A stretch of DNA of 64,000 nt from Escherichia coli (GCF_022846255.1 NZ_AP025682.1), one strand, 5' to 3'; numbered from the stretch's first letter, positions 20,290 through 33,371 are shown. Notes: generated by a model from the sequence alone, not told the origin. Numbers and translations are program-made.

Positions 20290-20592
20290 TTATTTTTTAT
20301 TCTGATCGCGCAGCATCGCTTCACGTAAAATTGCGTTCAGGCGAGTTTGATAGCCTTTACCTGGTCGCTTCAACCATTCCATCACATCAGAATCAATACG
20401 CACCGAGGCCTGAGTTTTCAATGGCCGATAAAACTTACCGCGTTCTGCGTTAGACCATTGCTCATCGCTGGAAGGAGGGATATCACTGTAATCAATCTCT
20501 TCGTCGGATTTATTCGCCAGCGCCTTCAGTTCGGCCTCATGCTGCACATCGAGTGTAGAGGAGGTCCCTCGTTTATGTTTAACCATGCTCAT
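20290..20592 (-). CDS. DUF4415-family protein (BrnA-like putative antitoxin / RHH-like)
   Basis: About 100 aa from MSMVKHKRG with AGAGGAG RBS; sequence SDEEIDYSDIP...VRIDSDVMEWLKRPGKGYQTRLNAILREA matches the DUF4415 pattern as recalled. Confidence 0.65.
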   Translation of the reverse strand: MSMVKHKRGTSSTLDVQHEAELKALANKSDEEIDYSDIPPSSDEQWSNAERGKFYRPLKTQASVRIDSDVMEWLKRPGKGYQTRLNAILREAMLRDQNKK

Positions 20593-20730
20593 AGCGACTC
20601 CTCTCTTTACGATCTGCTTTTCGTGCACTGATGATTCGAATGTTGGAAATAGCATCACGTTTTAGGAAAAGATAGGGAAGTTGATATGAAGGGGCTGGAT
20701 GGCAGCATTGGGACACCATCCAGCACTTAT

Positions 20731-21465
20731 TCAAACCTGATAGCAATCCACCAAAAATGCCATCATTTCACTGGCATCTTTGCTGTGATAAAAGCGCACC
20801 ATTTTGCTGTTGAACTCCAGCGCACGAGCTGCGGGTACACTAATGGGATTGTAACCGTGGCGCATTAACCAGCCGTTCATCATATGGCGACTGGTACGCT
20901 TGTTGCCATCAAAGAAAAACTGAAAATAAGCACCAAATAAAAACATTGCCAGCGCCCCTTCGAATGGTGGCATCTCTTTTATTTGTGCCACACCTGCGGC
21001 GAATATTCGATTCAGTTCAGGTGCACCTGCTTCAGTGGCTGGTGGAAAATGAGCGCCCAGTTCACCGAGATGAACGCGCGCATTGTAATGTAACTCTTCA
21101 CCTTCGCCGCGAAAAACGCCCCACTCCAGCGCCTCATTACGCGCAATAATGCCGTTAAGTAACGTGAACGTTTTCTTATCAAGGTCAAAACGCCCGAATT
21201 GCACAAGTTCAATCAGTTTTTTTGCGCTATCTGCCAGGTTCAACACCTGCTCAGTATCACTGACCTTATGCCCGCCAACAGTGACGCCATCGAGCAACGT
21301 TTTAACTTCAACAAAGGTATAGGGGTTATTTTCCAGTTGCGCGGCATCCCAGACAAACCCAGCCATATGCGTTTTGAAGGTAAATAAGGCTGCGCGCGTA
21401 CCGACAATTTGCATCGCCGGGATGGCATTTGCATTCCAGCTCAGGTCCAGTAGTTTGGTTGTCAT
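20731..21465 (-). CDS. Fic/Doc-fold protein with degenerate active-site motif
   Basis: 244 aa; region FQFFFDGNKRTSRHMMNGWLMRHGY aligns to the Fic motif HPFx(D/E)GNGRxxR but has Gln in place of the invariant His and the Doc-type NKR; AAGGA RBS; 43 bp downstream of GmrSD-like gene. Confidence 0.55.
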   Translation of the reverse strand: MTTKLLDLSWNANAIPAMQIVGTRAALFTFKTHMAGFVWDAAQLENNPYTFVEVKTLLDGVTVGGHKVSDTEQVLNLADSAKKLIELVQFGRFDLDKKTFTLLNGIIARNEALEWGVFRGEGEELHYNARVHLGELGAHFPPATEAGAPELNRIFAAGVAQIKEMPPFEGALAMFLFGAYFQFFFDGNKRTSRHMMNGWLMRHGYNPISVPAARALEFNSKMVRFYHSKDASEMMAFLVDCYQV

Positions 21466-21508: not shown

Positions 21509-23608
21509 TTAAACCATCGCGTTATCCATCTGCTTTTCAAATGCCTGACGAATTAATCCCATCACATAAGGAAGCTCAGAAAGATCGCTGAAACCTATTT
21601 CAACATCGCCATTGCCCCAACGGCCTATATCTGTGACATCTTTAGCCATACATTTTGGGTCAACCAGTTCATGGAATGGCATATTTAGTGATAAACGTAA
21701 GCGACTTTTTTGCGGCACCACATCAACAAAATTCGTCTCCGCTTTGAAGGCAACATAGAGCTTCAATATTTCTCGCGTAACCCCAGCGTCCAGCGTCATA
21801 ACGGCATCAGAAAGGCTGTCAAAAAGTACGCGGATGTGCGTACCTTCTTCAAGTTGCGGGAAATCAGCAAGGACATATCCCGTTCCTCGTTCAACGACAG
21901 TGCGATAACGAGCCAACACGTCTTCCGAAAGTTTGGGGATCGCCCAGACGTCTATTGCCAGCTCGGACAGACGTTCCGCTCTCTTTTGTATCGCTGCACG
22001 ATCCCATATTTCACATTGCCCTAACCCCGTGTTCAGGCGTAATGGACTTTCCTTAAAGCCACCTTTTATATCTCGTTTCTTCGCAAATGGACGGTCGCTG
22101 TAGCTTGAGTTATAGCCAGTTAACGTTAAATTACCCAACGTATGGAGCCACTTTTTATGGATACGCTTCCATTCCGGACCAAGGTCATCGCGCCACTTCA
22201 CCGATAAATTAGGGTTCTGCGGCATGATATGTTCAATCGTATAAGTGTCAACATAGACCCGTTCTTTACGATCGTGGTTTTCAAATCTGCGTAGCCAATA
22301 GCTGCGATTACGGAAGTTGTAGAGATCGCGAGTTTTCAGTTCACGTTGAAATTCATCATCATCCGGGAAACGACGGTAGGAAGGCAGATCCAGCAAATGC
22401 GCCGCAATGCTCTCCAGATAACGCTCTTTATCCAGCACTTTGTAAAACGTAGCGAAGGTTTTAGTAAATGAGTTGGTGGGAATTGCACAGACTGCGCGCC
22501 GGAAGATATACGACTCAATTAAACGCGTGGCACCTAAAAAATCCGCGGCAGAAAGGATCCCCTGTTTATAGTCGTGATAAAGCACCAACAGGAACGGCCA
22601 TGCAGCATCAACTTTCAGTTCCCGCAGATCCTGAAACGCCATCTTTAAGGTTTTATCCTTTTCGCTATCCAGCGCCATCGCACAAAAATAGTCAGCAAAC
22701 GTACGAATATCCGCAACCAGCGCCTCCATCCCGCTATCTATTACGCCAGGTTTTCGCGCATAGCGTTTAAAGGCTTCATAGACATCACCAATTCGCGGAA
22801 TCTCACCTGTTTTTACCGTCAGGTAATTACGCATAAAACTGTCGAAATAGTCAGTGTATCCCTTCTGACCAAACGCCAGCTCCATGGGCCGCCAGTAATC
22901 GTCGTACAGTTGGCTTTGATGTTCTGGCTCCAGCCCCATCAAAACATAGTTGCGTACTAGATCCGCCTGACTCAGCGCTTTTCCTGTAGAGTTCATGCTT
23001 TCGAAGATAAGTTGCGGATTATCCTGACCGCGATTCAAGGCGACATCCACAATCAGCAGTTTTGAAAGGCCCTGACATAACGCGGTGAAATTGCCGTGGA
23101 GTTTGCCTATTTGCTCATGGAAAAACTCAAAATTCTCTTTCACGCGTAGAGAGCAATTTTCTGCCAGCGGTTTTTGTCTAATCAATGCCAGCAGGCTTTC
23201 TCTGTCCGTTTGCGTAAGCAGTAACTTAAAACCACGCTCGCCTGATTCATACGGATTGAGCAGATAATAGTTTCGTAATTTCATGGCGGAGAAACCATCC
23301 ATCACCTCGTCATCGCCAAGATGTCTGGACAACGCTTCCAGCAATAACATCGCCGTTGTCAGGCGTTGCTGACCGTCAATCACCAGTAATGGCGAAATCC
23401 CCGAAACCTGATATAGGCCCTGTTCGATATACACCACCGAGCCGATGAAATGCGCCGGGATATCATCACGCTGCCCGGCACGTATTACATCGTCCCAGAG
23501 CTGGCGGCACTGTTCCTCTGACCATGAGTAAGTACGCTGATAAATGGGAATAACGAATTGCTGAGAGCGTTTTAGAAAATCGAGTAATCGGGCTTCGGTG
23601 GCTTTCAT
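21509..23608 (-). CDS. GmrSD-like Type IV restriction endonuclease candidate (DUF262 ParB-like NTPase + DUF1524 His-Me finger nuclease)
   Basis: 699 aa; N-terminal IPIYQRTYSW and DGQQRLT motifs (DUF262); C-terminal EHIMPQ...GNLTLTGYNSSYS motif (DUF1524); AGGAG RBS. Confidence 0.75.
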   Translation of the reverse strand: MKATEARLLDFLKRSQQFVIPIYQRTYSWSEEQCRQLWDDVIRAGQRDDIPAHFIGSVVYIEQGLYQVSGISPLLVIDGQQRLTTAMLLLEALSRHLGDDEVMDGFSAMKLRNYYLLNPYESGERGFKLLLTQTDRESLLALIRQKPLAENCSLRVKENFEFFHEQIGKLHGNFTALCQGLSKLLIVDVALNRGQDNPQLIFESMNSTGKALSQADLVRNYVLMGLEPEHQSQLYDDYWRPMELAFGQKGYTDYFDSFMRNYLTVKTGEIPRIGDVYEAFKRYARKPGVIDSGMEALVADIRTFADYFCAMALDSEKDKTLKMAFQDLRELKVDAAWPFLLVLYHDYKQGILSAADFLGATRLIESYIFRRAVCAIPTNSFTKTFATFYKVLDKERYLESIAAHLLDLPSYRRFPDDDEFQRELKTRDLYNFRNRSYWLRRFENHDRKERVYVDTYTIEHIMPQNPNLSVKWRDDLGPEWKRIHKKWLHTLGNLTLTGYNSSYSDRPFAKKRDIKGGFKESPLRLNTGLGQCEIWDRAAIQKRAERLSELAIDVWAIPKLSEDVLARYRTVVERGTGYVLADFPQLEEGTHIRVLFDSLSDAVMTLDAGVTREILKLYVAFKAETNFVDVVPQKSRLRLSLNMPFHELVDPKCMAKDVTDIGRWGNGDVEIGFSDLSELPYVMGLIRQAFEKQMDNAMV

Positions 23609-23892
23609 GAATGACTCCTGTCAAATTGCGCTGGCAAACGGCGTCATTATGCTGCGAATAAAAAATAAAAGTTAGCGTCTTTGTTTCTGCAAAAATACCA
23701 TTCCAGGATAAATCAAAATATATTAAGAAACACCTCAAAACACATTCATTAGAACAATTAATGCTTCCAATATATATTAATAACGCATTGAAAATGATCA
23801 TGTTTTTGATCATCACAACGATAGTTTGATATAACAAAGCATTCACTTCACATTGAATATCCCCCTCTTTTTCAGGGCAAGGAATGCTTTTT

Positions 23893-26238
23893 ATGTCATC
23901 AACTAATTTCAGCCAGATTGCAGCCTTCCTGTGGTCTGTCGCCGACCTGTTACGCGGCGATTTTAAACAATCACAATATGGGCGAATTATTCTCCCTTTC
24001 ACTCTTCTTCGTCGTCTGGAATGCGTACTCGAAACAACGAAAGACGCGGTCATTGCTGAGGCGCAAAAAGTAAAAGCCATGAAACTACCAGAGGACGCTC
24101 AGGAGAAAATGATCCTGCGGGCGACCAATGGCCTCACGTTCTTTAACGCCTCAGCGATGGACCTCAGCAAAATGGGGCAAAATGGCATACAGGACAACCT
24201 GGAAAACTATATCCAGTCGTTCTCTTCGGATGCCCGAGAAATTTTCGAACACTTCAAGTTCAGCGAATTTGTCGGGCAGCTCGCTGATGCGAACTTACTG
24301 TTCAAAGTGGTGCAAATATTCGCTAAAGCAGATTTATACCCCGGGCGCGTCACCAACCACGACATGGGGCTGGTGTTTGAGGAGCTGATCCGACGTTTTG
24401 CAGAGAGTTCTAACGAAACCGCCGGGGAACACTTTACCCCGCGTGATATAGTCAATCTGACCACCTCGCTGGTGTTTTTCGATGATGATGATGCACTCAA
24501 TAAAGACGGCATCATCCGCACCATTTACGACCCAACAGCAGGAACCGGCGGCTTTCTCTCTTCCGGCATGGAGTACGTCCACAAACAAAACCCCAATGCC
24601 GTGATGCGCGCGTTTGGTCAGGAGTTAAACCCGGAATCCTACGCCATCTGCAAAGCCGACATGCTGATTAAGGGCCAGGACGTCAGCCTTATCAAACTCG
24701 GCAACACCCTTTCCAACGATCAACTCCCCACAGAAAAATTCGATTACATGCTCTCTAACCCACCTTTCGGCGTGGACTGGAAAAAGATCGAAGGCGACAT
24801 CAACGACGAGCACAAACTCAAAGGTGCTGATGGCCGCTTTGGCCCCGGCCTGCCCCGCGTCTCCGACGGTTCGTTGCTGTTTCTGCTGCACCTGATCAGC
24901 AAAATGCGCGATGCCAAAAGCGGTGGTGGGCGGATCGGCATCATTCTTAATGGCTCTCCGTTATTCACCGGCGGCGCGGGCAGCGGTGAAAGCGAGATCC
25001 GCCGCTACATTCTGGAAGCGGATTTGCTGGAAGGCATTATCGCCCTGCCCACCGACATGTTTTACAACACCGGTATCGCTACCTATGTGTGGATTTTGTC
25101 GAATAAAAAAGCGCCAGAGCGCAAGGGCAAAGTCCAGCTTATCGACGCTAGCAACCTGTGCGGCAAGATGCGTAAATCGCTGGGGTCAAAACGCAATATT
25201 CTCGGGGAGGAGGATATTGGTTTAATCACCCGCACGTTTGGCGATTTCGAATTCGTTGCCACCACCACGCTTGCGGCGTTAGGCCTGGAGAAAGCACCCG
25301 AACAAAAATCCAGCCGGGGACGCCAGCCCGCAACAACCAAAACCGAGGCGGCAAAAACCTTTGCCAGCAAAGTCTTTCACAGCACCGAGTTTGGCTATCG
25401 TCGCATCACCGTTGAACGCCCGTTACGCCTGTCGGCTCAGATCACCGATGACGCCATTGCCACATTGCTCTTTGCGCCGAAGCCGTTTAACGCTCCGATG
25501 GCGCAACTGTATGACGCCTTTGCTTTCCAGTGGCAGGACGGTAATTACGGCGACTTAACAGAGATAGAAAGTGAAGCCCGCGCCATTCTTAAAGCCGATT
25601 TTAGCGAGCTGAAAGAGAAGCAAATTAAAGATCTGCTCGACAGCAAATTATGGCTGGTCCAGCGCGGATTAATGGAAAAAGCGCGGCGTATTCAGGCGGC
25701 GATGGGTATGCAGGCGGGCGGCAAAGATACCGTTAGCAATGACTTTAATCAGTTCCAGTTGACGCTGAAAGAGGCGTTCAAAACCGCAGGCGTGAAGCTG
25801 GATGCGAAAGAGAACAAGCAGTTTATTGATGCCATTACCCGCAAAAACCCGGACGCCGAGCCGGTAGTCAGCAAGGTACTGAAAGAAGCGGCCCAACCGC
25901 TGTATGGCGCGTGTGAGTACAACGGAAAGGTTGTGGAGTTTGAGCCGGATGGCGACCTGCGTGATAACGAGAATGTGCCGTTAAATCCGGCGGTATCTAC
26001 CAGCGAGTTGATCGAGGGTTACTTCAAAGCAGAAGTGTTACCGCACGCCGCGGATGCGTGGATTAACGCCGATAAACGCGATGCGAAAGATGGGGATATC
26101 GGGATTGTGGGGTATGAAATTCCGTTTAATCGCCATTTTTATGTTTATACACCGCCGCGACCGTTGGAGGAGATTGATGCTGATTTGGATGCGGTAAGCG
26201 CTGAGATTATGAAACTGTTGCAGGAGGTACATTCCTGA
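23893..26238 (+). CDS. hsdM: Type I restriction-modification DNA methyltransferase subunit M (with long C-terminal extension)
   Basis: About 781 aa; motif [11 protein letters not shown] and motif IV NPPFG present; start taken at second ATG (23893) with AAGGA RBS; stop overlaps hsdS start. Confidence 0.9.
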
Positions 26239-27503
26239 TGGCGGGGTTAAATAAGTATCGGGCGTATCCGGAGTACAAGGATTCTGGGGTGGAGTGGTTG
26301 GGGGAGATACCAGTCCATTGGAATATAAATCGGTTAGGACATTTTTTTGAGGAACGTAGAGAAAAGGTTAGTGATAAGGATTTCCCAGCATTATCAGTCA
26401 CAATGCAAGGGATTGTTCCTCAGCTTGAAACAGCAGCTAAAACGGATGCTGGAGACAATCGTAAATTAGTTTTAAAAGATGATTTTGTAATAAATAGTCG
26501 TTCTGACAGAAAAGGTTCAGCCGGTGTATCTCGGTTAAATGGCTCTGTTTCATTAATTAGCATAGTCATGCAACCAAAAAAAATAAATGTCAATTTTGCC
26601 CATCACCTACTCCGAAGCTATCCCTTCCAGGAAGAGTTTTATCGCTATGGGAAAGGAATCGTAGCAGATCTGTGGAGCACTAATGCCTCCGAGATGAAAA
26701 ATATACTACTCCCTGAAATTCCTGGCAGCGAAAGTGAAAATATTGCAAATTTTCTCAACTATGAAACCGCAAAAATCGATATCCTGATCGAGAAACAACA
26801 ACAACTTATTGAACTGCTGAAAGAAAAACGTCAGGCCGTGATTAGCCATGCGGTGACCAAAGGGCTAAATCCTGATGTGCCGATGAAAGATTCTGGGGTT
26901 GAGTGGTTGGACGAAATCCCTGAACACTGGAGGATATGCAAATTAAAAAACCTAGCTAAAATATGTAATGGACAGGATTATAAACTCGTTCAAGCAGAAA
27001 CCGGTTATCCAGTAATAGGCTTCGGGGGGCAGTTTGCATGGGCGAATACTTTTCTATATGATAAACCATCAGTCCTCTTGGGTAGAAAGGGTACAATTGA
27101 TAAACCATTGTATATAGACAAGGCATTTTGGACCGTCGATACAATGTATTACACGGAAGTATTTGATTGCATTATAGAGAAATATTTATATTATTTAGCA
27201 CTGACAATTCAGTTTAATCGTTATGCAACTAATACCGCACTGCCTAGTATGACTCAAGAACACTTAGGTAATTACTCATTTTCATTGTCATTCAACCTCA
27301 GTGAGCAAAAACTAATAATTAATAGCATTGAAAAATCATTAATTAAAATAGATGCCCTAACCGAAAAACAGTTAAAACAAATCGAACTCCTCAAAGAACG
27401 CCGCACCGCCCTTATCTCCGCCGCCGTCACCGGCAAAATAGATCTCCGCAACTGGACCGCCCCCATCGCCAAAACGGAAGCACCCACGGAGGCCAGCGCA
27501 TGA
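26238..27503 (+). CDS. hsdS: Type I restriction-modification specificity subunit S
   Basis: 421 aa; two AT-rich target-recognition domains separated by conserved repeats (KDSGVEWLGEIPVHW / KDSGVEWLDEIPEHW; LLKEKRQAVIS / LLKERRTALIS); TGATG overlap with hsdM. Confidence 0.85.
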   Translation: MAGLNKYRAYPEYKDSGVEWLGEIPVHWNINRLGHFFEERREKVSDKDFPALSVTMQGIVPQLETAAKTDAGDNRKLVLKDDFVINSRSDRKGSAGVSRLNGSVSLISIVMQPKKINVNFAHHLLRSYPFQEEFYRYGKGIVADLWSTNASEMKNILLPEIPGSESENIANFLNYETAKIDILIEKQQQLIELLKEKRQAVISHAVTKGLNPDVPMKDSGVEWLDEIPEHWRICKLKNLAKICNGQDYKLVQAETGYPVIGFGGQFAWANTFLYDKPSVLLGRKGTIDKPLYIDKAFWTVDTMYYTEVFDCIIEKYLYYLALTIQFNRYATNTALPSMTQEHLGNYSFSLSFNLSEQKLIINSIEKSLIKIDALTEKQLKQIELLKERRTALISAAVTGKIDLRNWTAPIAKTEAPTEASA

Positions 27504-30500
27504 GCAACGACATTACAAAAGAGCTCAACCTGCAAAACGACATCATCGCCCAGATGGTGGAAAAAGGCTGGATTGTCGGCAAAGGTGACGGCTACGACCG
27601 GGAACGTGCGCTATACGCACAAGACGTTCTGCACTTTGTGCAAACCACCCAACCGCAAGAGTGGGAGAAATTCGCCCGCGTTTACCCCAACGACAACGAA
27701 CGCCATTTCCTCGACGCGCTGGTTGCGCAGTTAAAAAAAGCCGACAGCAACGCCACCGACATCCAGACGCGCACCTGGGGTACGCTCGGCGTACTTCGCC
27801 ACGGACTGAAAATCCGCAATGCCCGTTTTTCGCTGTGTCAGTTTAAACCGGAACATAATCTCAACCCGGAAACGCTGGCGCGCTATCAGCAGAATATCTG
27901 CCGTATCGTGCCGGAACTGGTCTACAGCCCATATGCCTCAAATAGCGTCTTTGCAGAAACGGGCGTGAAAGCCAAAAAATGGCGCATCGACCTGGTGCTG
28001 TTTATCAACGGCCTGCCAATTGCCACGCTGGAGCTGAAATCCGAATTCAAACAGGCGGTGCAGAACGCCATTGCGCAGTACAAAAAGACCCGCCTGCCGA
28101 AAGATCCCGCCACCAATAAACCGGAACCGCTGCTGACCTTTAAGCGCGGCGCGCTGGTGCATTTTGCCGTCAGCCAGTATGACGTCTTTATGACCACCAA
28201 ACTCGCGGGTGACAGCACCTTCTTCCTGCCGTTTAACAAAGGCACCAAAGACGGAGGCGCAGGCAACGAGATCCCCGAAGATACCCACCGCTACGCCACC
28301 GATTATCTGTGGAATGAAGTGCTGCTGCCGGACAACTTATTAAAAATCCTCGCCAGTTTTGTCCATTTGCAGATTGAAGAAAAAGAGGACTGGAACGGGC
28401 TGAAAGCGAAGAAAGAGAGCCTGATTTTCCCGCGTTATCACCAGTGGGATGTGGTCAACAAACTGCTGGAGGCCGCAACGGTCGAAGGCACCGGCCATAA
28501 ATACCTGATCCAGCACAGCGCCGGTTCCGGTAAATCGAACTCCATTGCCTGGACCGCCCACCAGCTTTCTCGTCTGTACGACGTGAACGGGGAAAAACAG
28601 TTCCACTCCGTTATCGTGGTGACGGACCGCACGGTGCTGGACGACCAGCTTCAGGACACCATCTGGCAGTTCGAACATGCCGACGGCGTGGTCGGGCGCA
28701 TCAATAACAGAGAGGGCGACGGCTCTAAATCGGAAAAGCTCGCCAACGCGCTGGAAAACTCGCAGCCGATAATCATCGTCACCATCCAGACATTCCCGTT
28801 CGTGCTGAAAGCCATCGAAAACAGCGTCAGCCTGAAGCAGCGTAAATACGCGGTGATTGCCGACGAAGCACACTCCTCGCAGAGCGGTTCTACCGCCCGT
28901 CAGCTTAAAGAAGTGCTGATGAGCGAAGAAATGGATGATGACGTGGTACTGTCGTCAGAAGATATCCTGGATGCGACCATTGCCGCCCGGAAAGGCAGCA
29001 GTAACCTGAACTACTACGCCTTTACCGCCACGCCAAAATCCAAAACCCTCGAACTTTTTGGTCGCCGCCCACGTCCCGATGAACCGGCGTCAAAAACCAA
29101 TAAACCTGAGGCCTTCCACGTCTACTCCATGCGCCAGGCAATCGAAGAAGGCTTTATCCTCGATGTGCTGAAAAACTACACCAACTACAAAGTGGCGTAT
29201 CAGTTGTTGCAAAAGCTGGAAGACAAAGACCGCGAGGTCGATAGCAAACGGGCGAAGATTAAGCTCAACCAGTGGGTGACACTGCACGACCACAATATCT
29301 CGCAGAAGGTGAAGGTGATTGTGGATCACTTCCGCAAACATGTGATGCACCTGCTTGGTGGCCAGGCCAAAGCGATGGTGGTCACCAGTTCACGCAAAGC
29401 CGCTGTGCGCTACAAGCTGGCGTTTGATAAATACATTAGCGAGAACAATTACCAGAAAATCAGCGCGATGGTGGCATTTTCCGGGGAAGTTGAATTCCAG
29501 GAAGGCGACCATAACAGCCTGGCATTGTTAAACCAGAAATTTACTGAAATAAACATGAACCCCGGCCTGAAAGGGCGGGATATGCGCAAAGCCTTCGACA
29601 GCGACGATTATCAGGTGATGTTGGTCGCCAATAAATTCCAGACCGGTTTTGACCAGCCAAAGCTGTGCGCAATGTACGTGGATAAACCCCTCGGTGGCGT
29701 CGAGTGTGTCCAGACGCTTTCCCGCCTGAACCGCACCTATCCGGGCAAAGCGGAATCAGGCACTTTTGTCCTCGATTTTATCAACGATCCGGGCGAGATC
29801 CTCAAGGCATTCCAGCCCTATTACCAGACGGCGGAACTGACCGATGTCAGCGATCCGCAGCAGGTATTCGATCTGTTTGAAAAACTGCGCGCCACGCAGA
29901 TTTTCCAGTGGCATGAAGTCGAGCAGTTCTGCGAGGCATACTTCATCAAAAATAAATCGAATGCGGCGATCAGTAATATCTGCAAACCGGCGGTAGAACG
30001 CTGGAAAAAGCGTTATCTGATGGCGATAGACGCCTATTTGACCGCCAAAGAGATGTTCGAGCGCACCAAAAAAACGGGCGATACGGTGTTAATCACCAAT
30101 GCGGAAAACAGTTTTAAAGCCTGTAAGCAGGAGAAAGATCGCCTGGAAATATTCAAAAAGGATCTCGGCAGCTTTGTTCGCTTTTATGAATTTATGTCGC
30201 AGATCGTCGAGTACGATGACAAAGATCTGGAAAAACTGAGCCTGTTTGCCCGCCATTTGCGTCCGCTGCTGCATGAACAACGTCTGGAAGAGGATGAGGT
30301 TGATCTCAGTAACGTGGAGATCAGTCACTATCGCTTATCGAAAATCCATGAACAAGATTTACGCTTACAGGAAGAAACACCTGACTATACGCTGGATGCA
30401 AGTAATGATATTGGTACGGCAAAAGCGAAAGATAAAAAAGAGGAGTTTTTATCGCAGGTGCTTTCTCGGATGAATGAATTATTCATTAGCGACCATTTGA

Positions 30501-30763
30501 CCGACAAAGATATGATCAGCAATGCTTTTTCGGTGTATAACAAAATAACTGAAAATGAAAATGTTATGACACAAATTAATAATAATCCGCCAGAACAAGC
30601 TATTCTTGGTGATTTCCTCCAGGCAGTTGATAATGCTGTAATGGACAGTAATGACGCTCGACAAGAATTTATGTTGCAATATTTATCCGATCCAGTTCGG
30701 GCAAAGGGCTTTGCTTATCTGATGTTTGATATGCTAACGGGGAAAATTGCTTTGCCAACATGA
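27500..30763 (+). CDS. hsdR: Type I restriction enzyme R subunit (endonuclease/helicase)
   Basis: 1087 aa; N-terminal PD-(D/E)xK-like LELKSE region, Walker A GSGKS, DEAH box VIADEAHSSQ; ATGA overlap with hsdS. Confidence 0.9.
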   Translation: MSNDITKELNLQNDIIAQMVEKGWIVGKGDGYDRERALYAQDVLHFVQTTQPQEWEKFARVYPNDNERHFLDALVAQLKKADSNATDIQTRTWGTLGVLRHGLKIRNARFSLCQFKPEHNLNPETLARYQQNICRIVPELVYSPYASNSVFAETGVKAKKWRIDLVLFINGLPIATLELKSEFKQAVQNAIAQYKKTRLPKDPATNKPEPLLTFKRGALVHFAVSQYDVFMTTKLAGDSTFFLPFNKGTKDGGAGNEIPEDTHRYATDYLWNEVLLPDNLLKILASFVHLQIEEKEDWNGLKAKKESLIFPRYHQWDVVNKLLEAATVEGTGHKYLIQHSAGSGKSNSIAWTAHQLSRLYDVNGEKQFHSVIVVTDRTVLDDQLQDTIWQFEHADGVVGRINNREGDGSKSEKLANALENSQPIIIVTIQTFPFVLKAIENSVSLKQRKYAVIADEAHSSQSGSTARQLKEVLMSEEMDDDVVLSSEDILDATIAARKGSSNLNYYAFTATPKSKTLELFGRRPRPDEPASKTNKPEAFHVYSMRQAIEEGFILDVLKNYTNYKVAYQLLQKLEDKDREVDSKRAKIKLNQWVTLHDHNISQKVKVIVDHFRKHVMHLLGGQAKAMVVTSSRKAAVRYKLAFDKYISENNYQKISAMVAFSGEVEFQEGDHNSLALLNQKFTEINMNPGLKGRDMRKAFDSDDYQVMLVANKFQTGFDQPKLCAMYVDKPLGGVECVQTLSRLNRTYPGKAESGTFVLDFINDPGEILKAFQPYYQTAELTDVSDPQQVFDLFEKLRATQIFQWHEVEQFCEAYFIKNKSNAAISNICKPAVERWKKRYLMAIDAYLTAKEMFERTKKTGDTVLITNAENSFKACKQEKDRLEIFKKDLGSFVRFYEFMSQIVEYDDKDLEKLSLFARHLRPLLHEQRLEEDEVDLSNVEISHYRLSKIHEQDLRLQEETPDYTLDASNDIGTAKAKDKKEEFLSQVLSRMNELFISDHLTDKDMISNAFSVYNKITENENVMTQINNNPPEQAILGDFLQAVDNAVMDSNDARQEFMLQYLSDPVRAKGFAYLMFDMLTGKIALPT

Positions 30764-30828
30764 AAATACGTTGATAGCCGGGGTCGCACTTTCTACCCCG
30801 GCCATATTATTTGCAATAAGGAATAGCT

Positions 30829-31542
30829 ATGCTGAAGATGATTAAAGATTTTAAATTCAAAAAATACATTAAAAAATTACGTGAAGAAGGTTTGTTTTTT
30901 TATGTTTCTTTCGGGTTTATATTAACATTGTTAATGGAAGTTGATGACCGATTACCGTACTATCTTCAACAAGACTTCTTTTTTGATACACTTATAGGAT
31001 TTATGCCAATCAATATACTCTTTGTTTTGATTTGCATAAATGCATTTTTCATTTTCGTCCACACACTTATTTCACCTTATAAAGGTCAAAGAGTTGGTGA
31101 GAAATTTCTCTCTGAACTTGATAAAAGAACGCAACAAATTGGCTTTATTATTTCATTCATATGTTTTGGCATGACATTGTTTTGTGCTCTGGCGTGGTTG
31201 CTGTTTTTTGAGATGAATACTGAAAGTTACTACGCAAAATATACATTAGATTTTTTGGCTGTTTTTATCATTATGATTATGTTTTCTTCAGCAGTTAATC
31301 CAGTCATGAGAAGAATATTCCAAAAAATGAAGGAATCGGACTCACATGGAAATTCAAAAATAATTCTTATAATTATAATCATTACATTATTGCTACTATT
31401 ACCAATTGCGTGCATTATCAATAAAAATAAAACAATTGAAATCAATATTAAGAAAGAAACTTATCAGCAAATAAAAGAAAAAACAAAGATGAAACCAGAA
31501 GATTATATCAAAAAATTGATTGCTGATATTAAATTCAACTAA
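30829..31542 (+). CDS. Hypothetical polytopic membrane protein (AT-rich, orphan)
   Basis: 237 aa; about 5 predicted TM helices; very AT-rich with atypical codon usage; AAGGAA RBS; no similarity recognised to any named family. Confidence 0.55.
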   Translation: MLKMIKDFKFKKYIKKLREEGLFFYVSFGFILTLLMEVDDRLPYYLQQDFFFDTLIGFMPINILFVLICINAFFIFVHTLISPYKGQRVGEKFLSELDKRTQQIGFIISFICFGMTLFCALAWLLFFEMNTESYYAKYTLDFLAVFIIMIMFSSAVNPVMRRIFQKMKESDSHGNSKIILIIIIITLLLLLPIACIINKNKTIEINIKKETYQQIKEKTKMKPEDYIKKLIADIKFN

Positions 31543-31545
31543 TAT

Positions 31546-31572
31546 CTATATGTACCCTAGTTTCTTCCTAGG
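31546..31572. repeat. AT-rich near-perfect inverted repeat (TATATGTACCCTAG-N7-CTAGGTACATATA)
   Basis: 13-14 bp arms with one-base bulge immediately after the membrane-protein stop; not followed by a T-run on the plus strand. Confidence 0.4.
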
Positions 31573-31617
31573 TACATATAAAAAGTTAATATCCTGATTT
31601 ATTCTCAACATCCCCCC

Positions 31618-31782
31618 TCACTCCACATCTTCCCTGCGTAACCCAATATCCCTCAACCGCTCATCACTCATCTGCTGTAACACCCGCCGGGCCTGCATTT
31701 GCCGCCGCCAACGCCTCACTGCCTGCCAGAGTTGTACGATGCCAGTAAACGGCGCTTTGGCTTTGTTTTCGTGAAATTCCAT
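31618..31782 (-). CDS. yjiS: DUF1127-family small protein
   Basis: 54 aa (MEFHENKAKAPFTGIVQLWQAVRRWRRQMQARRVLQQMSDERLRDIGLRREDVE) with GAGGAGG RBS; below the 60-aa cutoff of the ORF track; divergent from yjiR. Confidence 0.7.
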   Translation of the reverse strand: MEFHENKAKAPFTGIVQLWQAVRRWRRQMQARRVLQQMSDERLRDIGLRREDVE

Positions 31783-31958
31783 CTGCTGCCTCCTCATCTT
31801 TCAGAGGCTTCATCATCCGTCTTCTGGCAGTTCACAATACAGATGCAAATATTAGTTTTATTTAACATACAGACAGGTTAAAACAGCATCTGCATCCGGT
31901 TTTTTAGCCTCATCTGTACCGGTTTTTCTCTCTGTATGGTCCAAATAAGGAATACAGC

Positions 31959-33371
31959 ATGACGCGTTATCAACATCTGGCGACTCTACTTGCCGAGCGG
32001 ATTGAGCAAGGGCTGTATCGTCACGGGGAGAAATTGCCGTCGGTGCGCAGCTTAAGTCAGGAGCACGGCGTCAGTATTAGCACCGTGCAGCAGGCGTACC
32101 AGACGCTGGAGACGATGAAGCTCATCACTCCGCAGCCGCGTTCGGGTTATTTTGTCGCACAACGTAAAGCCCAGCCGCCAGTACCGCCGATGACGCGTCC
32201 GGTGCAGCGCCCGGTGGAAATTACCCAGTGGGATCAAGTGCTGGATATGCTGGAGGCGCATAGCGACAGTTCCATTGTTCCGTTAAGTAAAAGCACGCCG
32301 GATGTCGAAACGCCCAGCCTGAAACCGCTGTGGCGGGAGCTAAGCCGGGTGGTGCAGCATAATCTGCAAACCGTTCTCGGTTATGACTTGTTAGCCGGTC
32401 AGCGAGTGTTGCGAGAGCAGATTGCCCGCCTGATGCTCGACAGCGGCTCGGTGGTCACCGCCGATGACATCATTATCACCAGCGGCTGCCATAACTCGAT
32501 GTCGCTGGCGTTAATGGCGGTATGTAAACCGGGCGATATTGTCGCAGTCGAATCCCCCTGTTATTACGGTTCAATGCAGATGCTGCGCGGTATGGGCGTG
32601 AAAGTGATTGAAATCCCAACCGATCCAGAAACTGGCATCAGCGTTGAAGCGCTGGAACTGGCGCTGGAACAGTGGCCGATTAAAGGCATCATTCTGGTGC
32701 CAAACTGTAATAATCCGCTGGGATTTATTATGCCGGACGCACGCAAACGGGCCGTTCTCTCTCTCGCTCAGCGTCATGATATTGTGATTTTTGAAGATGA
32801 TGTCTACGGCGAACTGGCGACGGAGTATCCGCGCCCGCGGACCATTCATTCCTGGGATATCGACGGGCGAGTGCTGCTGTGCAGCTCGTTCAGTAAAAGT
32901 ATTGCACCTGGCCTGCGCGTGGGTTGGGTCGCACCGGGGCGTTATCACGATAAACTGATGCATATGAAATACGCCATCAGCAGCTTTAATGTGCCGTCCA
33001 CGCAAATGGCGGCGGCAACGTTTGTGCTGGAAGGTCACTATCATCGCCATATCCGGCGGATGCGGCAGATCTATCAGCGCAATCTGGCACTTTATACCTG
33101 CTGGATACGGGAATATTTTCCCTGCGAAATCTGTATTACGCGCCCGAAAGGCGGATTTTTACTGTGGATAGAATTGCCTGAACAGGTCGATATGGTCTGC
33201 GTCGCGCGGCAGCTGTGCCGCATGAAAATCCAGGTGGCAGCAGGCTCGATTTTCTCAGCTTCCGGCAAATACCGTAATTGTCTGCGCATCAACTGCGCTT
33301 TGCCGCTCAGCGAAACCTATCGCGAAGCACTGAAGCAAATTGGCGAAGCCGTGTATCGGGCAATGGAATGA
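31959..33371 (+). CDS. yjiR: MocR-family transcriptional regulator (GntR HTH + PLP-dependent aminotransferase-like domain)
   Basis: 470 aa; N-terminal GntR-type HTH, C-terminal fold-type I aminotransferase-like region. Confidence 0.85.
   Translation: MTRYQHLATLLAERIEQGLYRHGEKLPSVRSLSQEHGVSISTVQQAYQTLETMKLITPQPRSGYFVAQRKAQPPVPPMTRPVQRPVEITQWDQVLDMLEAHSDSSIVPLSKSTPDVETPSLKPLWRELSRVVQHNLQTVLGYDLLAGQRVLREQIARLMLDSGSVVTADDIIITSGCHNSMSLALMAVCKPGDIVAVESPCYYGSMQMLRGMGVKVIEIPTDPETGISVEALELALEQWPIKGIILVPNCNNPLGFIMPDARKRAVLSLAQRHDIVIFEDDVYGELATEYPRPRTIHSWDIDGRVLLCSSFSKSIAPGLRVGWVAPGRYHDKLMHMKYAISSFNVPSTQMAAATFVLEGHYHRHIRRMRQIYQRNLALYTCWIREYFPCEICITRPKGGFLLWIELPEQVDMVCVARQLCRMKIQVAAGSIFSASGKYRNCLRINCALPLSETYREALKQIGEAVYRAME

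What the first reader, a model, noticed from the sequence alone, without database searches (positions are those of the whole stretch)
30829..31572. AT-rich orphan membrane protein plus palindrome immediately downstream of hsdR
A 237-aa protein with about five TM helices is encoded in a markedly AT-rich stretch with atypical codon usage, directly after hsdR and ending in a 13-14 bp AT-rich inverted repeat. Stand-alone membrane proteins embedded in R-M/defence islands are frequently abortive-infection effectors or phage-exclusion proteins; I recognise no known family.
Basis: inference. Interest (0 to 1): 0.6.

Follow-up and report, generated by a model that had tools for sequence, protein, structure and literature searches.

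The report
Membrane protein with RHH-like tail
The gene after hsdR is a real, selected gene for a five-helix inner-membrane protein with a small ribbon-helix-helix-like tail; it belongs to a tiny uncharacterised family that sits at the same edge of the restriction-gene island in Escherichia and Salmonella, so it is a credible but untested candidate barrier to incoming DNA.

Summary
Window 30829-31542 (+) encodes a 237-aa protein at 27.6% GC (neighbours 50-55%). It has five hydrophobic segments, starts 65 nt after hsdR, and is followed by a 13-pair AT-rich hairpin at 31547-31580.

It is not a true orphan. About 20 clusters of 215-266-aa proteins in Gammaproteobacteria share its architecture, including Salmonella STM4522. 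The architecture is a basic N-terminus, five TM helices, and a C-terminal strand-helix-helix of about 40 aa. The family profile of that tail matches solved ribbon-helix-helix proteins (HP0222, E=1.7e-7). The membrane part has no relative in Pfam, NCBIfam, PADLOC, PHROGs, PDB or BFVD.

dN/dS of 0.2-0.33 shows purifying selection. Loop charges place the N-terminus inside, so the tail is predicted to be periplasmic.

In E. coli the gene is present in 114 of 5426 complete genomes, the same number that carry this hsdR. In Salmonella it follows symE and a different hsd family, yet again abuts yjiS. A Vibrio homologue lies between E1/ubiquitin-like and dGTPase defence genes. Other homologues lie among housekeeping genes.

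The hairpin is an ordinary gene-end stem-loop. My best guess, at low confidence, is an envelope-level DNA-entry exclusion protein. No function has been shown.

The parts
27500..30763 (+). hsdR (type I restriction subunit R, 1087 aa). This is the upstream same-strand neighbour and is context only.
   Evidence: ORF. PADLOC REase_I 1.5e-39. RefSeq annotation of the 97% identical E. coli C4 gene.
30774..30805 (+). GC-rich hairpin (GCCGGGGT...ACCCCGGC) 11 nt after the hsdR stop, followed by CATATTATTT. It is a likely weak terminator or attenuator between hsdR and the membrane-protein gene.
   Evidence: Inverted repeat I13. Fold -17 kcal/mol but z only -1.4. The terminator scan did not call it because the loop is 10 nt.
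30818..30822 (+). Shine-Dalgarno AAGGA, 6 nt before the ATG.
   Evidence: Read from the sequence.
30829..31542 (+). Coding sequence of the 237-aa inner-membrane protein (stop included). It is a member of a small uncharacterised gammaproteobacterial family; the Salmonella homologue is STM4522.
   Evidence: dN/dS 0.33 between E. coli alleles. All 114 E. coli copies are full-length matches.
30829..30891 (+). Residues 1-21: basic N-terminal tail (8 K/R), predicted cytoplasmic.
   Evidence: Charge count.
30892..31419 (+). Residues 22-197: five transmembrane helices. Loops 82-103 and 160-177 are basic (inside). Loops 39-60 and 128-138 are acidic or short (outside). Residues 61-81 (TM2) carry most of the amino-acid differences between alleles.
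   Evidence: Hydropathy and family-wide loop charges. AF2 helices 20-41, 61-80, 84-129, 134-169 and 174-196. 11 of 15 nonsynonymous differences from the C4 allele fall in codons 61-81.
31420..31539 (+). Residues 198-237: strand-helix-helix tail (TIEINI / ETYQQIKEKTK / PEDYIKKLIADI), ribbon-helix-helix-like. It is the most conserved part within Enterobacteriaceae and is predicted to face the periplasm.
   Evidence: Family C-terminal profile against PDB: HP0222 1x93 1.7e-7, 2k1o 0.006, ParD, ParG and PutA RHH weaker. Sub-threshold Pfam RHH families map to the C-termini of 5 members. AF2 helices 209-219 and 223-233 at pLDDT about 80-88. No nonsynonymous change among E. coli alleles. Caveat: the enterobacterial subgroup alone gives no RHH hit.
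31547..31580 (.). AT-rich hairpin (10 perfect pairs plus 3 after a bulge, 7-nt loop) between the convergent membrane-protein gene and yjiS. It is a gene-end stem-loop belonging to the variable cassette.
   Evidence: Present with a tighter stem (-19.6 kcal/mol) in E. coli C4 and E69. Backbone homology to other E. coli starts only at about 31607-31618.
31607..31618 (.). Junction between the variable island and the conserved yjiS-side backbone.
   Evidence: Partial matches in about 3600 E. coli genomes start at query positions 128-139 of window 31480-31960.
31618..31782 (-). yjiS (DUF1127 small protein). This is the convergent backbone neighbour and is context only.
   Evidence: ORF. Annotation.

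Best explanation
Shown:
- Window 30829-31542 is an expressed-type, selectively maintained gene for a homodimer-prone inner-membrane protein.
- The protein has a basic cytoplasmic N-terminus, five transmembrane helices, and a roughly 40-residue C-terminal strand-helix-helix domain of the ribbon-helix-helix (RHH) type.
- It belongs to a very small, sporadically distributed gammaproteobacterial family. In Escherichia and Salmonella that family occupies the yjiS-proximal edge of the immigration control region, as horizontally acquired AT-rich cargo.
- The hairpin at 31547-31580 is its 3' stem-loop.

Inferred:
- With five helices and the N-terminus inside, the RHH-like tail lies on the periplasmic face, immediately against the membrane.
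- There it would pair with the tail of a second subunit through the two-stranded ribbon.
- The dimer would act as an envelope-level 'immigration control' factor. It would interfere with passage of foreign DNA, or of the phage or conjugative proteins that conduct it, across the inner membrane, in the manner of superinfection or entry-exclusion proteins.
- It would complement the cytoplasmic restriction enzymes encoded beside it and would work independently of the hsd genes.
For: Real gene:
- dN/dS is 0.33 (window vs E. coli E69; dS 0.20) and 0.2-0.3 against Salmonella, with synonymous sites saturated.
- All 114 E. coli matches are full length.

Family and architecture:
- 23 representatives at E<1e-3 among 1.84 billion cluster representatives.
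- The alignment shows shared helices and a shared tail.
- The AF2 model has pLDDT 76.8.

RHH tail:
- The profile of 17 C-termini hits the solved RHH proteins HP0222 (1.7e-7), 2k1o, ParD, ParG and PutA.
- Pfam NikA-like, RHH_7, TacA1 (two members) and DUF6290 all map to the C-termini.

Topology:
- Mean K+R per segment is N-terminus 4.8, loop1 0.9, loop2 4.3, loop3 1.2, loop4 3.2 across 20 members.

Context:
- The window island contains BrnA, Fic, GmrSD, hsdMSR, this gene, then yjiS.
- STM4522 lies between symE and yjiS after hsdR-M-S of another family.
- A third enterobacterial copy lies beside an Mrr remnant.
- The V. parahaemolyticus copy lies between an E1/Multi_ubiq/BubE system and a dGTPase (PADLOC 1.6e-53).

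Independence from hsd:
- Distant homologues have no hsd genes nearby.

Foreign origin:
- GC 0.28 against 0.49 for the window.
- The gene diverges faster than its neighbours: 86% aa identity against 95-96% for HsdR and HsdM in E69.
Against: - No experiment or homology links the protein to any exclusion or defence family. PADLOC, PHROGs and BFVD were all negative.
- No copy was found on phages, IMG/VR contigs or plasmids, where exclusion genes usually live.
- At least three distant homologues lie among housekeeping genes: the hut operon, GST/permease genes, and a DeoR regulator.
- The topology rests on the positive-inside rule alone. The tail itself carries about 8 K/R.
- The RHH signal comes from the distant members. 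The Escherichia/Salmonella subgroup has a helix-helix turn shorter by 3 residues and gives no RHH hit on its own.
- The ribbon residues that would face outward are often acidic, which argues against DNA binding.
- No sigma-70-like promoter was found in the 65-nt spacer, and AT-rich genes of this kind are commonly H-NS-silenced (general knowledge).
Confidence: 0.3

Rival explanations
1. Non-defence envelope protein. Examples would be an orphan immunity protein against a membrane-targeting bacteriocin or secreted effector, or a small sensor or scaffold. On this reading its place in the island reflects only that the yjiA-yjiS hotspot accumulates any horizontally acquired DNA.
For: Several homologues are single genes among housekeeping genes. 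No defence-family match was found. The TM helices almost lack charged residues, so a channel or transporter is unlikely. Rapid, locally clustered amino-acid change in TM2 would suit an immunity protein that tracks a membrane toxin.
Against: No toxin or effector gene is next to it in any locus seen. Two independent defence-island contexts were found. There was no match to colicin-immunity or other immunity families in Pfam.
Confidence: 0.22
2. Abortive-infection effector. The protein would be a latent membrane-disrupting toxin that is triggered on infection and kills or arrests the cell.
For: It is a stand-alone membrane protein in defence islands. There is precedent for a suicide effector embedded in a type I R-M cassette: PrrC in EcoprrI (general knowledge). 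The RHH tail most resembles antitoxin-type RHH families, TacA and ParD.
Against: No sensor domain or partner gene is conserved. The TM helices lack the charged or amphipathic features of pore formers. Only one noise-level holin match turned up, one member at E = 0.004, and there was no PADLOC match at all. There is no evidence of toxicity.
Confidence: 0.13
3. Membrane-tethered DNA-binding protein with the RHH tail in the cytoplasm. It would be either a transcription regulator that senses an envelope signal or a tether that holds DNA at the membrane. The downstream palindrome would be a possible operator.
For: RHH domains are, as a rule, cytoplasmic DNA-binding dimers, and the profile hits are to such proteins. 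The tail is lysine-rich in the Escherichia copy (11 K/R). An inverted repeat lies 8 nt after the stop codon.
Against: Five TM segments with a strongly basic N-terminus and basic loops 2 and 4 put the C-terminus outside. The strand starts about 5 residues after TM5, leaving little room for DNA. Ribbon positions are often acidic across the family. The palindrome is not conserved in any other homologue. No conserved target gene is adjacent.
Confidence: 0.12
4. Accessory subunit of this particular type I R-M system, for example a membrane anchor or regulator of HsdR.
For: In complete E. coli genomes this hsdR and the membrane-protein gene are each found in 114 of 5426. In every case checked they lie 65-68 nt apart in the same genome. 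They are on the same strand, with no recognisable promoter between them.
Against: Salmonella STM4522 is separated from a different hsd family (order R-M-S; HsdM only 25% identical) by symE. Homologues in Vibrio, Pseudomonas, Enterobacter and others have no hsd genes nearby. A hairpin separates it from hsdR. The E. coli linkage is explained by inheritance of one cassette at one locus.
Confidence: 0.06
5. Silenced, functionless passenger DNA on its way to decay.
For: Very low GC is typical of H-NS-silenced DNA (general knowledge). The S. diarizonae type-strain copy is frameshifted. Many Salmonella database entries are partial.
Against: dN/dS is well below 1 at all distances. The tail is conserved at the protein level while synonymous sites are saturated. 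All 114 E. coli copies are full-length matches.
Confidence: 0.07

Closest known systems
Ribbon-helix-helix (MetJ/Arc/CopG) superfamily: HP0222 (PDB 1x93), ParD, ParG, the PutA N-terminus, and TacA/DUF6290/NikA-type domains
   Same: The C-terminal 40 residues have a strand with alternating hydrophobic residues followed by two helices. In most family members there is a polar turn before helix 2. The profile match to HP0222 has E = 1.7e-7.
   Different: The domain is fused to the end of a five-helix membrane domain and is predicted to be periplasmic. Ribbon positions are often acidic. The Escherichia/Salmonella subgroup has a turn shorter by 3 residues and no match on its own. Dimerisation and DNA binding were not tested.
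Inner-membrane superinfection or entry-exclusion proteins (P22 SieA, T4 Imm, HK97 gp15, F-plasmid TraS), and the lipoprotein Ltp of phage TP-J34, which displays DNA-binding-type folds outside the membrane (general knowledge)
   Same: It is a small, AT-rich, fast-evolving, single-gene inner-membrane protein. The proposed action is at the step of DNA entry. For Ltp, a nucleic-acid-binding-type fold is likewise used on the outer face.
   Different: No sequence or fold similarity to any of them was found. The gene is chromosomal island cargo, not prophage- or plasmid-borne. Function is untested.
PrrC anticodon nuclease within the EcoprrI type I R-M cassette (general knowledge)
   Same: It is an extra gene of unrelated function travelling with hsd genes in an enterobacterial R-M cassette.
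   Different: PrrC is a cytoplasmic ATPase-nuclease placed between hsdS and hsdR and is functionally coupled to the enzyme. This gene encodes a membrane protein placed after hsdR and behind a hairpin, and its homologues occur without hsd genes.
Salmonella Typhimurium STM4522 (SL4453), annotated as a putative inner membrane protein
   Same: It is a true homologue (37.7% identity over 93% of the protein). It has the same architecture and the same position abutting yjiS at the island edge.
   Different: Its upstream neighbour is symE rather than hsdR. It is equally uncharacterised: no paper in the library describes it beyond a polar-effect mention.
DUF898 / YjgN family (Pfam PF05987)
   Same: This is the weakest resemblance, limited to hydrophobic helices 4-5 and the tail (E = 9e-5, 22.2 bits).
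   Different: The score is below the curated cut-off of 28 bits. Only 3 of 20 family members match, and the match region is Ile/Leu-rich. I treat it as compositional.

Membership tests
Ribbon-helix-helix superfamily (C-terminal domain only) | Sequence-profile similarity to solved RHH proteins | tested here: met
   The family C-terminal profile hits 1x93 HP0222 at 1.7e-7 and 2k1o at 0.006, with ParD, ParG and PutA RHH among the next hits. The full-length profile still hits 1x93 at 1.5e-4. Caveat: the enterobacterial subgroup alone and the window sequence alone give no RHH hit.
Ribbon-helix-helix superfamily (C-terminal domain only) | Strand-helix-helix secondary structure with alternating hydrophobic residues in the strand | tested here: met
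   TIEINI is followed by helices 209-219 and 223-233 in the AF2 model at pLDDT about 80-88. The alternation is visible in all 17 aligned tails.
Ribbon-helix-helix superfamily (C-terminal domain only) | Dimerisation through an antiparallel two-stranded ribbon, and DNA binding by that ribbon | not testable with these tools
   Only monomer prediction was available. Acidic residues at outward ribbon positions in many members and the predicted periplasmic location argue against DNA binding.
Type I R-M system component | Co-occurrence with hsd genes of one family wherever the gene is found | tested here: not met
   The linkage is 114 of 114 within E. coli. Salmonella, however, has a different hsd family with symE in between, and homologues in Vibrio, Pseudomonas and others have no hsd genes.
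Known anti-phage defence families (PADLOC-DB 2.0) | Match to a model of a known or candidate defence protein | tested here: not met
   0 families at E<=10.
Phage superinfection-exclusion, holin or other phage protein families (PHROGs, Pfam SieB, BFVD folds) | Sequence or fold similarity to a phage-encoded family | tested here: not met
   PHROGs gave only E>=0.004 hits in single members. Pfam SieB matched 1 of 20 members at 0.001, below threshold. The best BFVD Foldseek E-value was 0.47. No IMG/VR locus was found.
DUF898 (PF05987) | Score at or above Pfam gathering threshold | tested here: not met
   22.2 bits against a cut-off of 28.
Defence-island gene (guilt by association) | Recurrent neighbourhood of defence genes in independent lineages | tested here: inconclusive
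   Yes in the Escherichia/Salmonella island and the related L002 locus and in the V. parahaemolyticus island. No, or unknown, in Pseudomonas prosekii, the hut-operon, GST/permease and Enterobacter GFA loci, and on short contigs. There are too few informative loci for statistics.

The most novel reading that the evidence does not exclude
A ribbon-helix-helix domain is exported to the periplasmic face of the inner membrane and used there, as a membrane-hugging dimer, to catch or block incoming phage or conjugative DNA (or its conduit proteins). This would be a single-gene, pre-entry layer of the enterobacterial immigration control region, and the first RHH domain working outside the cytoplasm.
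Probability: 0.1. Interest if true: 0.8.

Novelty: new variant of a known kind. Interest (0 to 1): 0.45.

Why it matters
The yjiA-yjiS immigration control region is a classic locus. Yet a gene that keeps the same position at its edge in both Escherichia and Salmonella (STM4522) has never been studied.

Its architecture, five membrane helices ending in an RHH-like tail that is predicted to face the periplasm, is not represented in any curated family. If it does act on DNA entry, it would add a membrane-level layer to a locus known only for cytoplasmic nucleases. It would also extend the RHH fold to a new cellular compartment.

If it does not, the finding is an uncharacterised membrane-protein family with a clean and cheap set of experiments to run.

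Tried and rejected
Searches that gave nothing usable:
- Pfam, NCBIfam and PADLOC on the protein gave only sub-threshold hydrophobic matches: DUF898, MscS_TM and MATE.
- PHROGs on all 23 members gave noise only.
- The first AlphaFold run with 8 sequences was unusable (pLDDT 52.7).
- afdb50 was not available.
- The full-family alignment was too divergent for the genome-contig scan.
- The closer alignment found only E. coli E69 and a frameshifted S. diarizonae copy among 100,044 species genomes.
- There were no hits on plasmids, true phages or IMG/VR.
- Rfam found nothing around the hairpins.
- The promoter/terminator scan found no promoter in the hsdR-ORF spacer and called neither hairpin a terminator.
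- The literature library holds nothing on STM4522, SL4453 or WP_000916451 beyond a polar-effect remark in the YjiS paper.
- Most metagenomic homologues sit on contigs too short to give context.

Ideas rejected:
- The palindrome as a conserved operator or mobile-element end. It is absent from other homologues, each of which has its own stem-loop.
- Recent recombination as the cause of tail conservation. Synonymous sites are saturated.

Full report
**Observation**

Window 30829-31542 (+) is an ATG-started ORF of 237 codons. An AAGGA Shine-Dalgarno sequence lies 6 nt upstream. GC is 0.276 and GC3 is 0.28. For hsdM, hsdR, yjiR and mdtM, GC is 0.50-0.55 and GC3 is 0.61-0.66, and the window as a whole is 0.49.

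Five hydrophobic segments are present, with Kyte-Doolittle peaks of 1.6-3.4. The hsdR stop is at 30763, 65 nt upstream. The inverted repeat at 31547-31580 folds to -13.2 kcal/mol with z = -3.4, and 1 of 200 shuffles folds as well.

**Setting**

The window carries the enterobacterial immigration control region between yjiA and yjiS. In order it holds:
- a BrnA-domain ORF (20290-20658, -)
- a Fic-domain ORF (20731-21465, -)
- a GmrSD type IV enzyme (21509-23608, -)
- hsdM, hsdS and hsdR (23884-30763, +)
- the 237-aa ORF
- convergent yjiS, followed by yjiR, an Rpn gene, mdtM and yjiN

The region is 97% identical to E. coli strain C4, where the ORF is annotated as hypothetical protein WP_000916451.1.

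Backbone homology with other E. coli genomes (K-12 derivatives, O157 and about 3600 others) begins only at window 31607-31618, at the yjiS stop. The ORF and its hairpin therefore belong to the variable cassette.

**Is it a gene?**

Yes. Between E. coli alleles (window vs E69), dS is 0.198, dN is 0.066 and omega is 0.33. Against Salmonella and two other enterobacterial homologues, omega is 0.2-0.3 with synonymous sites saturated. All 114 E. coli matches are full length at 93.7-97.5% nucleotide identity, and nearly all are annotated as a single CDS.

The protein evolves faster than its neighbours. In E69 it is 86% identical, against 95.6% for HsdR and 95.3% for HsdM. Eleven of the 15 nonsynonymous differences from the C4 allele fall in codons 61-81, the second helix.

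**Family**

A word-indexed search of 5.8 billion proteins found only Escherichia copies and two 226-aa proteins at 41-43% identity. An exhaustive profile search of 1.84 billion cluster representatives found 23 proteins at E<1e-3, mostly 215-266 aa.

Named members come from Escherichia, Salmonella, Pseudocitrobacter, Enterobacter wuhouensis and E. bugandensis, Vibrio parahaemolyticus, Alishewanella, Rheinheimera and Pseudomonas prosekii. This is a very small, patchy gammaproteobacterial family.

The alignment shows these shared features:
- a basic N-terminus
- five helices
- a loop-1 motif, LPxxxxRGxFxxLLxDHIP in distant members and LPYYLQQDFFFDTLIGFMP here
- invariant G114 and Y135
- a C-terminal strand-helix-helix

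**The tail**

A profile of 17 C-termini matches the solved ribbon-helix-helix protein HP0222 (1x93) at E = 1.7e-7. It then matches 2k1o, ParD, ParG and the PutA RHH domain. Sub-threshold Pfam hits to NikA-like, RHH_7, TacA1 (two members) and DUF6290 all map to the last 40 residues of five different members.

In the AlphaFold model built from 23 sequences (pLDDT 76.8, pTM 0.64), residues 197-208 are extended. Residues 209-219 and 223-233 are helices at pLDDT about 80-88. That is what an RHH monomer looks like before its strand pairs with a partner.

There is a caveat. The Escherichia/Salmonella subgroup has a helix-helix turn shorter by three residues. Neither that subgroup's profile nor the window sequence alone finds RHH structures. 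The assignment for this protein therefore rests on homology within the family; members such as P0023 and P0027 bridge the two forms.

Within Enterobacteriaceae the tail is the most conserved part (TIxIxKExYQQIKEKTKMKPEDYI), while its codons are saturated with synonymous change. This is selection on the protein, not recent recombination.

**The membrane part**

It has no detectable relative:
- Pfam, NCBIfam, PADLOC and PHROGs
- PDB sequences
- Foldseek against viral models

The DUF898 hit (22.2 bits, cut-off 28) covers Ile/Leu-rich helices, and I regard it as compositional. The helices are almost free of charged residues, which does not suggest a channel or transporter.

**Topology (inferred)**

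Mean K+R per segment across 20 members:

| Segment | Mean K+R |
|---|---|
| N-terminus | 4.8 |
| Loop 1 | 0.9 |
| Loop 2 | 4.3 |
| Loop 3 | 1.2 |
| Loop 4 | 3.2 |

This alternation fits N-terminus-in with all five segments spanning the membrane. That places the tail in the periplasm, starting about 5 residues after helix 5. Treating helix 1 as non-spanning would put the two most basic loops outside, which is a much worse fit.

I put about 70% on a periplasmic tail. No dedicated topology predictor or model coordinates were available. Outward-facing ribbon positions are frequently acidic across the family. Together with the short tether, this makes classical operator binding unlikely.

**Linkage and context**

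In complete E. coli genomes this hsdR type and the ORF are each present in 114 of 5426. Wherever coordinates were listed, they are 65-68 nt apart in the same genome. That is one cassette at one locus, so it does not establish functional coupling.

The Salmonella homologue is STM4522 (37.7% identity). It lies between symE and yjiS, after an hsdR-hsdM-hsdS array of a different family whose HsdM is only 25% identical. What is conserved between the genera is the position abutting yjiS.

Other contexts:
- A third enterobacterial copy has an Mrr remnant upstream and the aldehyde dehydrogenase of the same neighbourhood downstream.
- The V. parahaemolyticus copy lies in an island with VspR, ImmA/HTH, and a Multi_ubiq-E1-BubE system upstream, and a dGTPase defence gene downstream (PADLOC 1.6e-53).
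- One copy neighbours an HNH-domain protein.
- Other copies lie beside a DeoR regulator and unknown genes in Pseudomonas, beside the hut operon, beside GST/permease genes, or directly after a GFA-domain gene in Enterobacter.
- The rest are on contigs too short to judge.
- No copy was found on plasmids, on true phages or in IMG/VR.

Defence association is therefore real in two lineages but is not a family-wide rule.

**The hairpins**

The AT-rich hairpin is kept, with a tighter stem (-19.6 kcal/mol), in E. coli C4 and E69. Salmonella and all other homologues have unrelated stem-loops after their stop codons. It lacks a U-tract in either direction, so it is not a canonical intrinsic terminator. 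It is best read as a gene-end stem-loop between two convergent genes, not as an operator or mobile-element end.

A second, GC-rich hairpin (30774-30805) follows hsdR. No sigma-70-like promoter was found in the spacer. How the gene is transcribed is therefore open.

**Interpretation**

- **Shown:** this is a real, selected gene for a five-helix membrane protein with an RHH-like C-terminus. It is a member of a tiny uncharacterised family and is cargo at the yjiS edge of the island in two genera.
- **Inferred:** the tail is periplasmic, and it dimerises through the ribbon.
- **Speculative but preferred (about 0.3):** it acts at the envelope against incoming DNA or its conduits, in the manner of superinfection or entry-exclusion proteins, independently of the hsd enzyme.

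The rivals, in order of my confidence, are:
- a non-defence envelope or immunity role (0.22)
- an abortive-infection effector (0.13)
- a cytoplasmic membrane-tethered RHH regulator (0.12)
- silenced passenger DNA (0.07)
- an accessory of the type I enzyme (0.06)

The literature library holds nothing on the Salmonella gene. The only mention is that it changes expression through polar effects in a yjiS complementation strain.

**Verdict**

The architecture is a new variant built on a known domain, joined to a membrane domain with no known relative. I score interest as moderate (0.45). The experiments are cheap, the locus is classical, and a periplasmic RHH would be a real surprise, but nothing yet shows a function.

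Noticed in passing
window 20290-21465 (-): A Fic-domain ORF (20731-21465) is followed on the same strand by a BrnA-antitoxin-domain ORF (20290-20658), with no BrnT toxin seen. This may be a Fic/BrnA toxin-antitoxin pairing next to GmrSD.
   Followed up: no
window 26238-27503 (+): hsdS has GC 0.41 and is only about 35% identical to the hsdS of E. coli C4 and E69, whereas hsdM and hsdR are 95-97% identical. This looks like a specificity-subunit swap within one cassette.
   Followed up: partly
window 30200-30763 (+), HsdR residues about 1005-1082: The 3' end of hsdR drops to GC 0.38-0.40. Its last roughly 80 residues match PADLOC candidate family PDC-S15 (E = 4e-6). The C-terminal module may have a separate origin.
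   Followed up: no
window 31009-31071 (codons 61-81 of the ORF): Amino-acid differences between E. coli alleles cluster in the second transmembrane helix: 11 nonsynonymous against 2 synonymous differences from strain C4. This may reflect local diversifying selection, but the numbers are small.
   Followed up: partly
window 30774-30805 (+): A GC-rich hairpin lies immediately after the hsdR stop and is followed by a T-rich stretch. The terminator scan did not call it because of its 10-nt loop.
   Followed up: partly
L010 9993-10691 (Salmonella enterica subsp. diarizonae CCUG 30040T): The family gene is frameshifted in this type strain, and many Salmonella database entries of the cluster are partial. 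This may reflect recurrent inactivation or A/T-run sequencing errors.
   Followed up: no
L022 66-3472: A distant family member is followed 10 nt later by a 284-aa protein with an N-terminal Cys/His zinc-ribbon-like motif. A convergent unknown of at least 589 aa follows. Neither has a Pfam or PADLOC match, so this may be a small uncharacterised island.
   Followed up: partly
L005 9355-9885 (Vibrio parahaemolyticus): The gene just upstream of the Vibrio homologue has a sub-threshold HEPN_AbiU2 match (E = 7e-4). The island also carries a Multi_ubiq-E1-BubE system and a dGTPase.
   Followed up: partly
protein P0030 (42 aa, metagenomic): A stand-alone 42-residue ORF closely resembles the C-terminal tail alone (EITLKIDKSKYIEIKEKTQAKPEEYIENIIKNLNFD). 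It is either a fragment or a free-standing version of the domain.
   Followed up: no
window 31618-31782 (-), yjiS: The convergent neighbour YjiS is reported to associate with the inner membrane and with inner-membrane proteins in Salmonella (PMC11707872). Whether it has any relation to the adjacent membrane protein is unknown.
   Followed up: no
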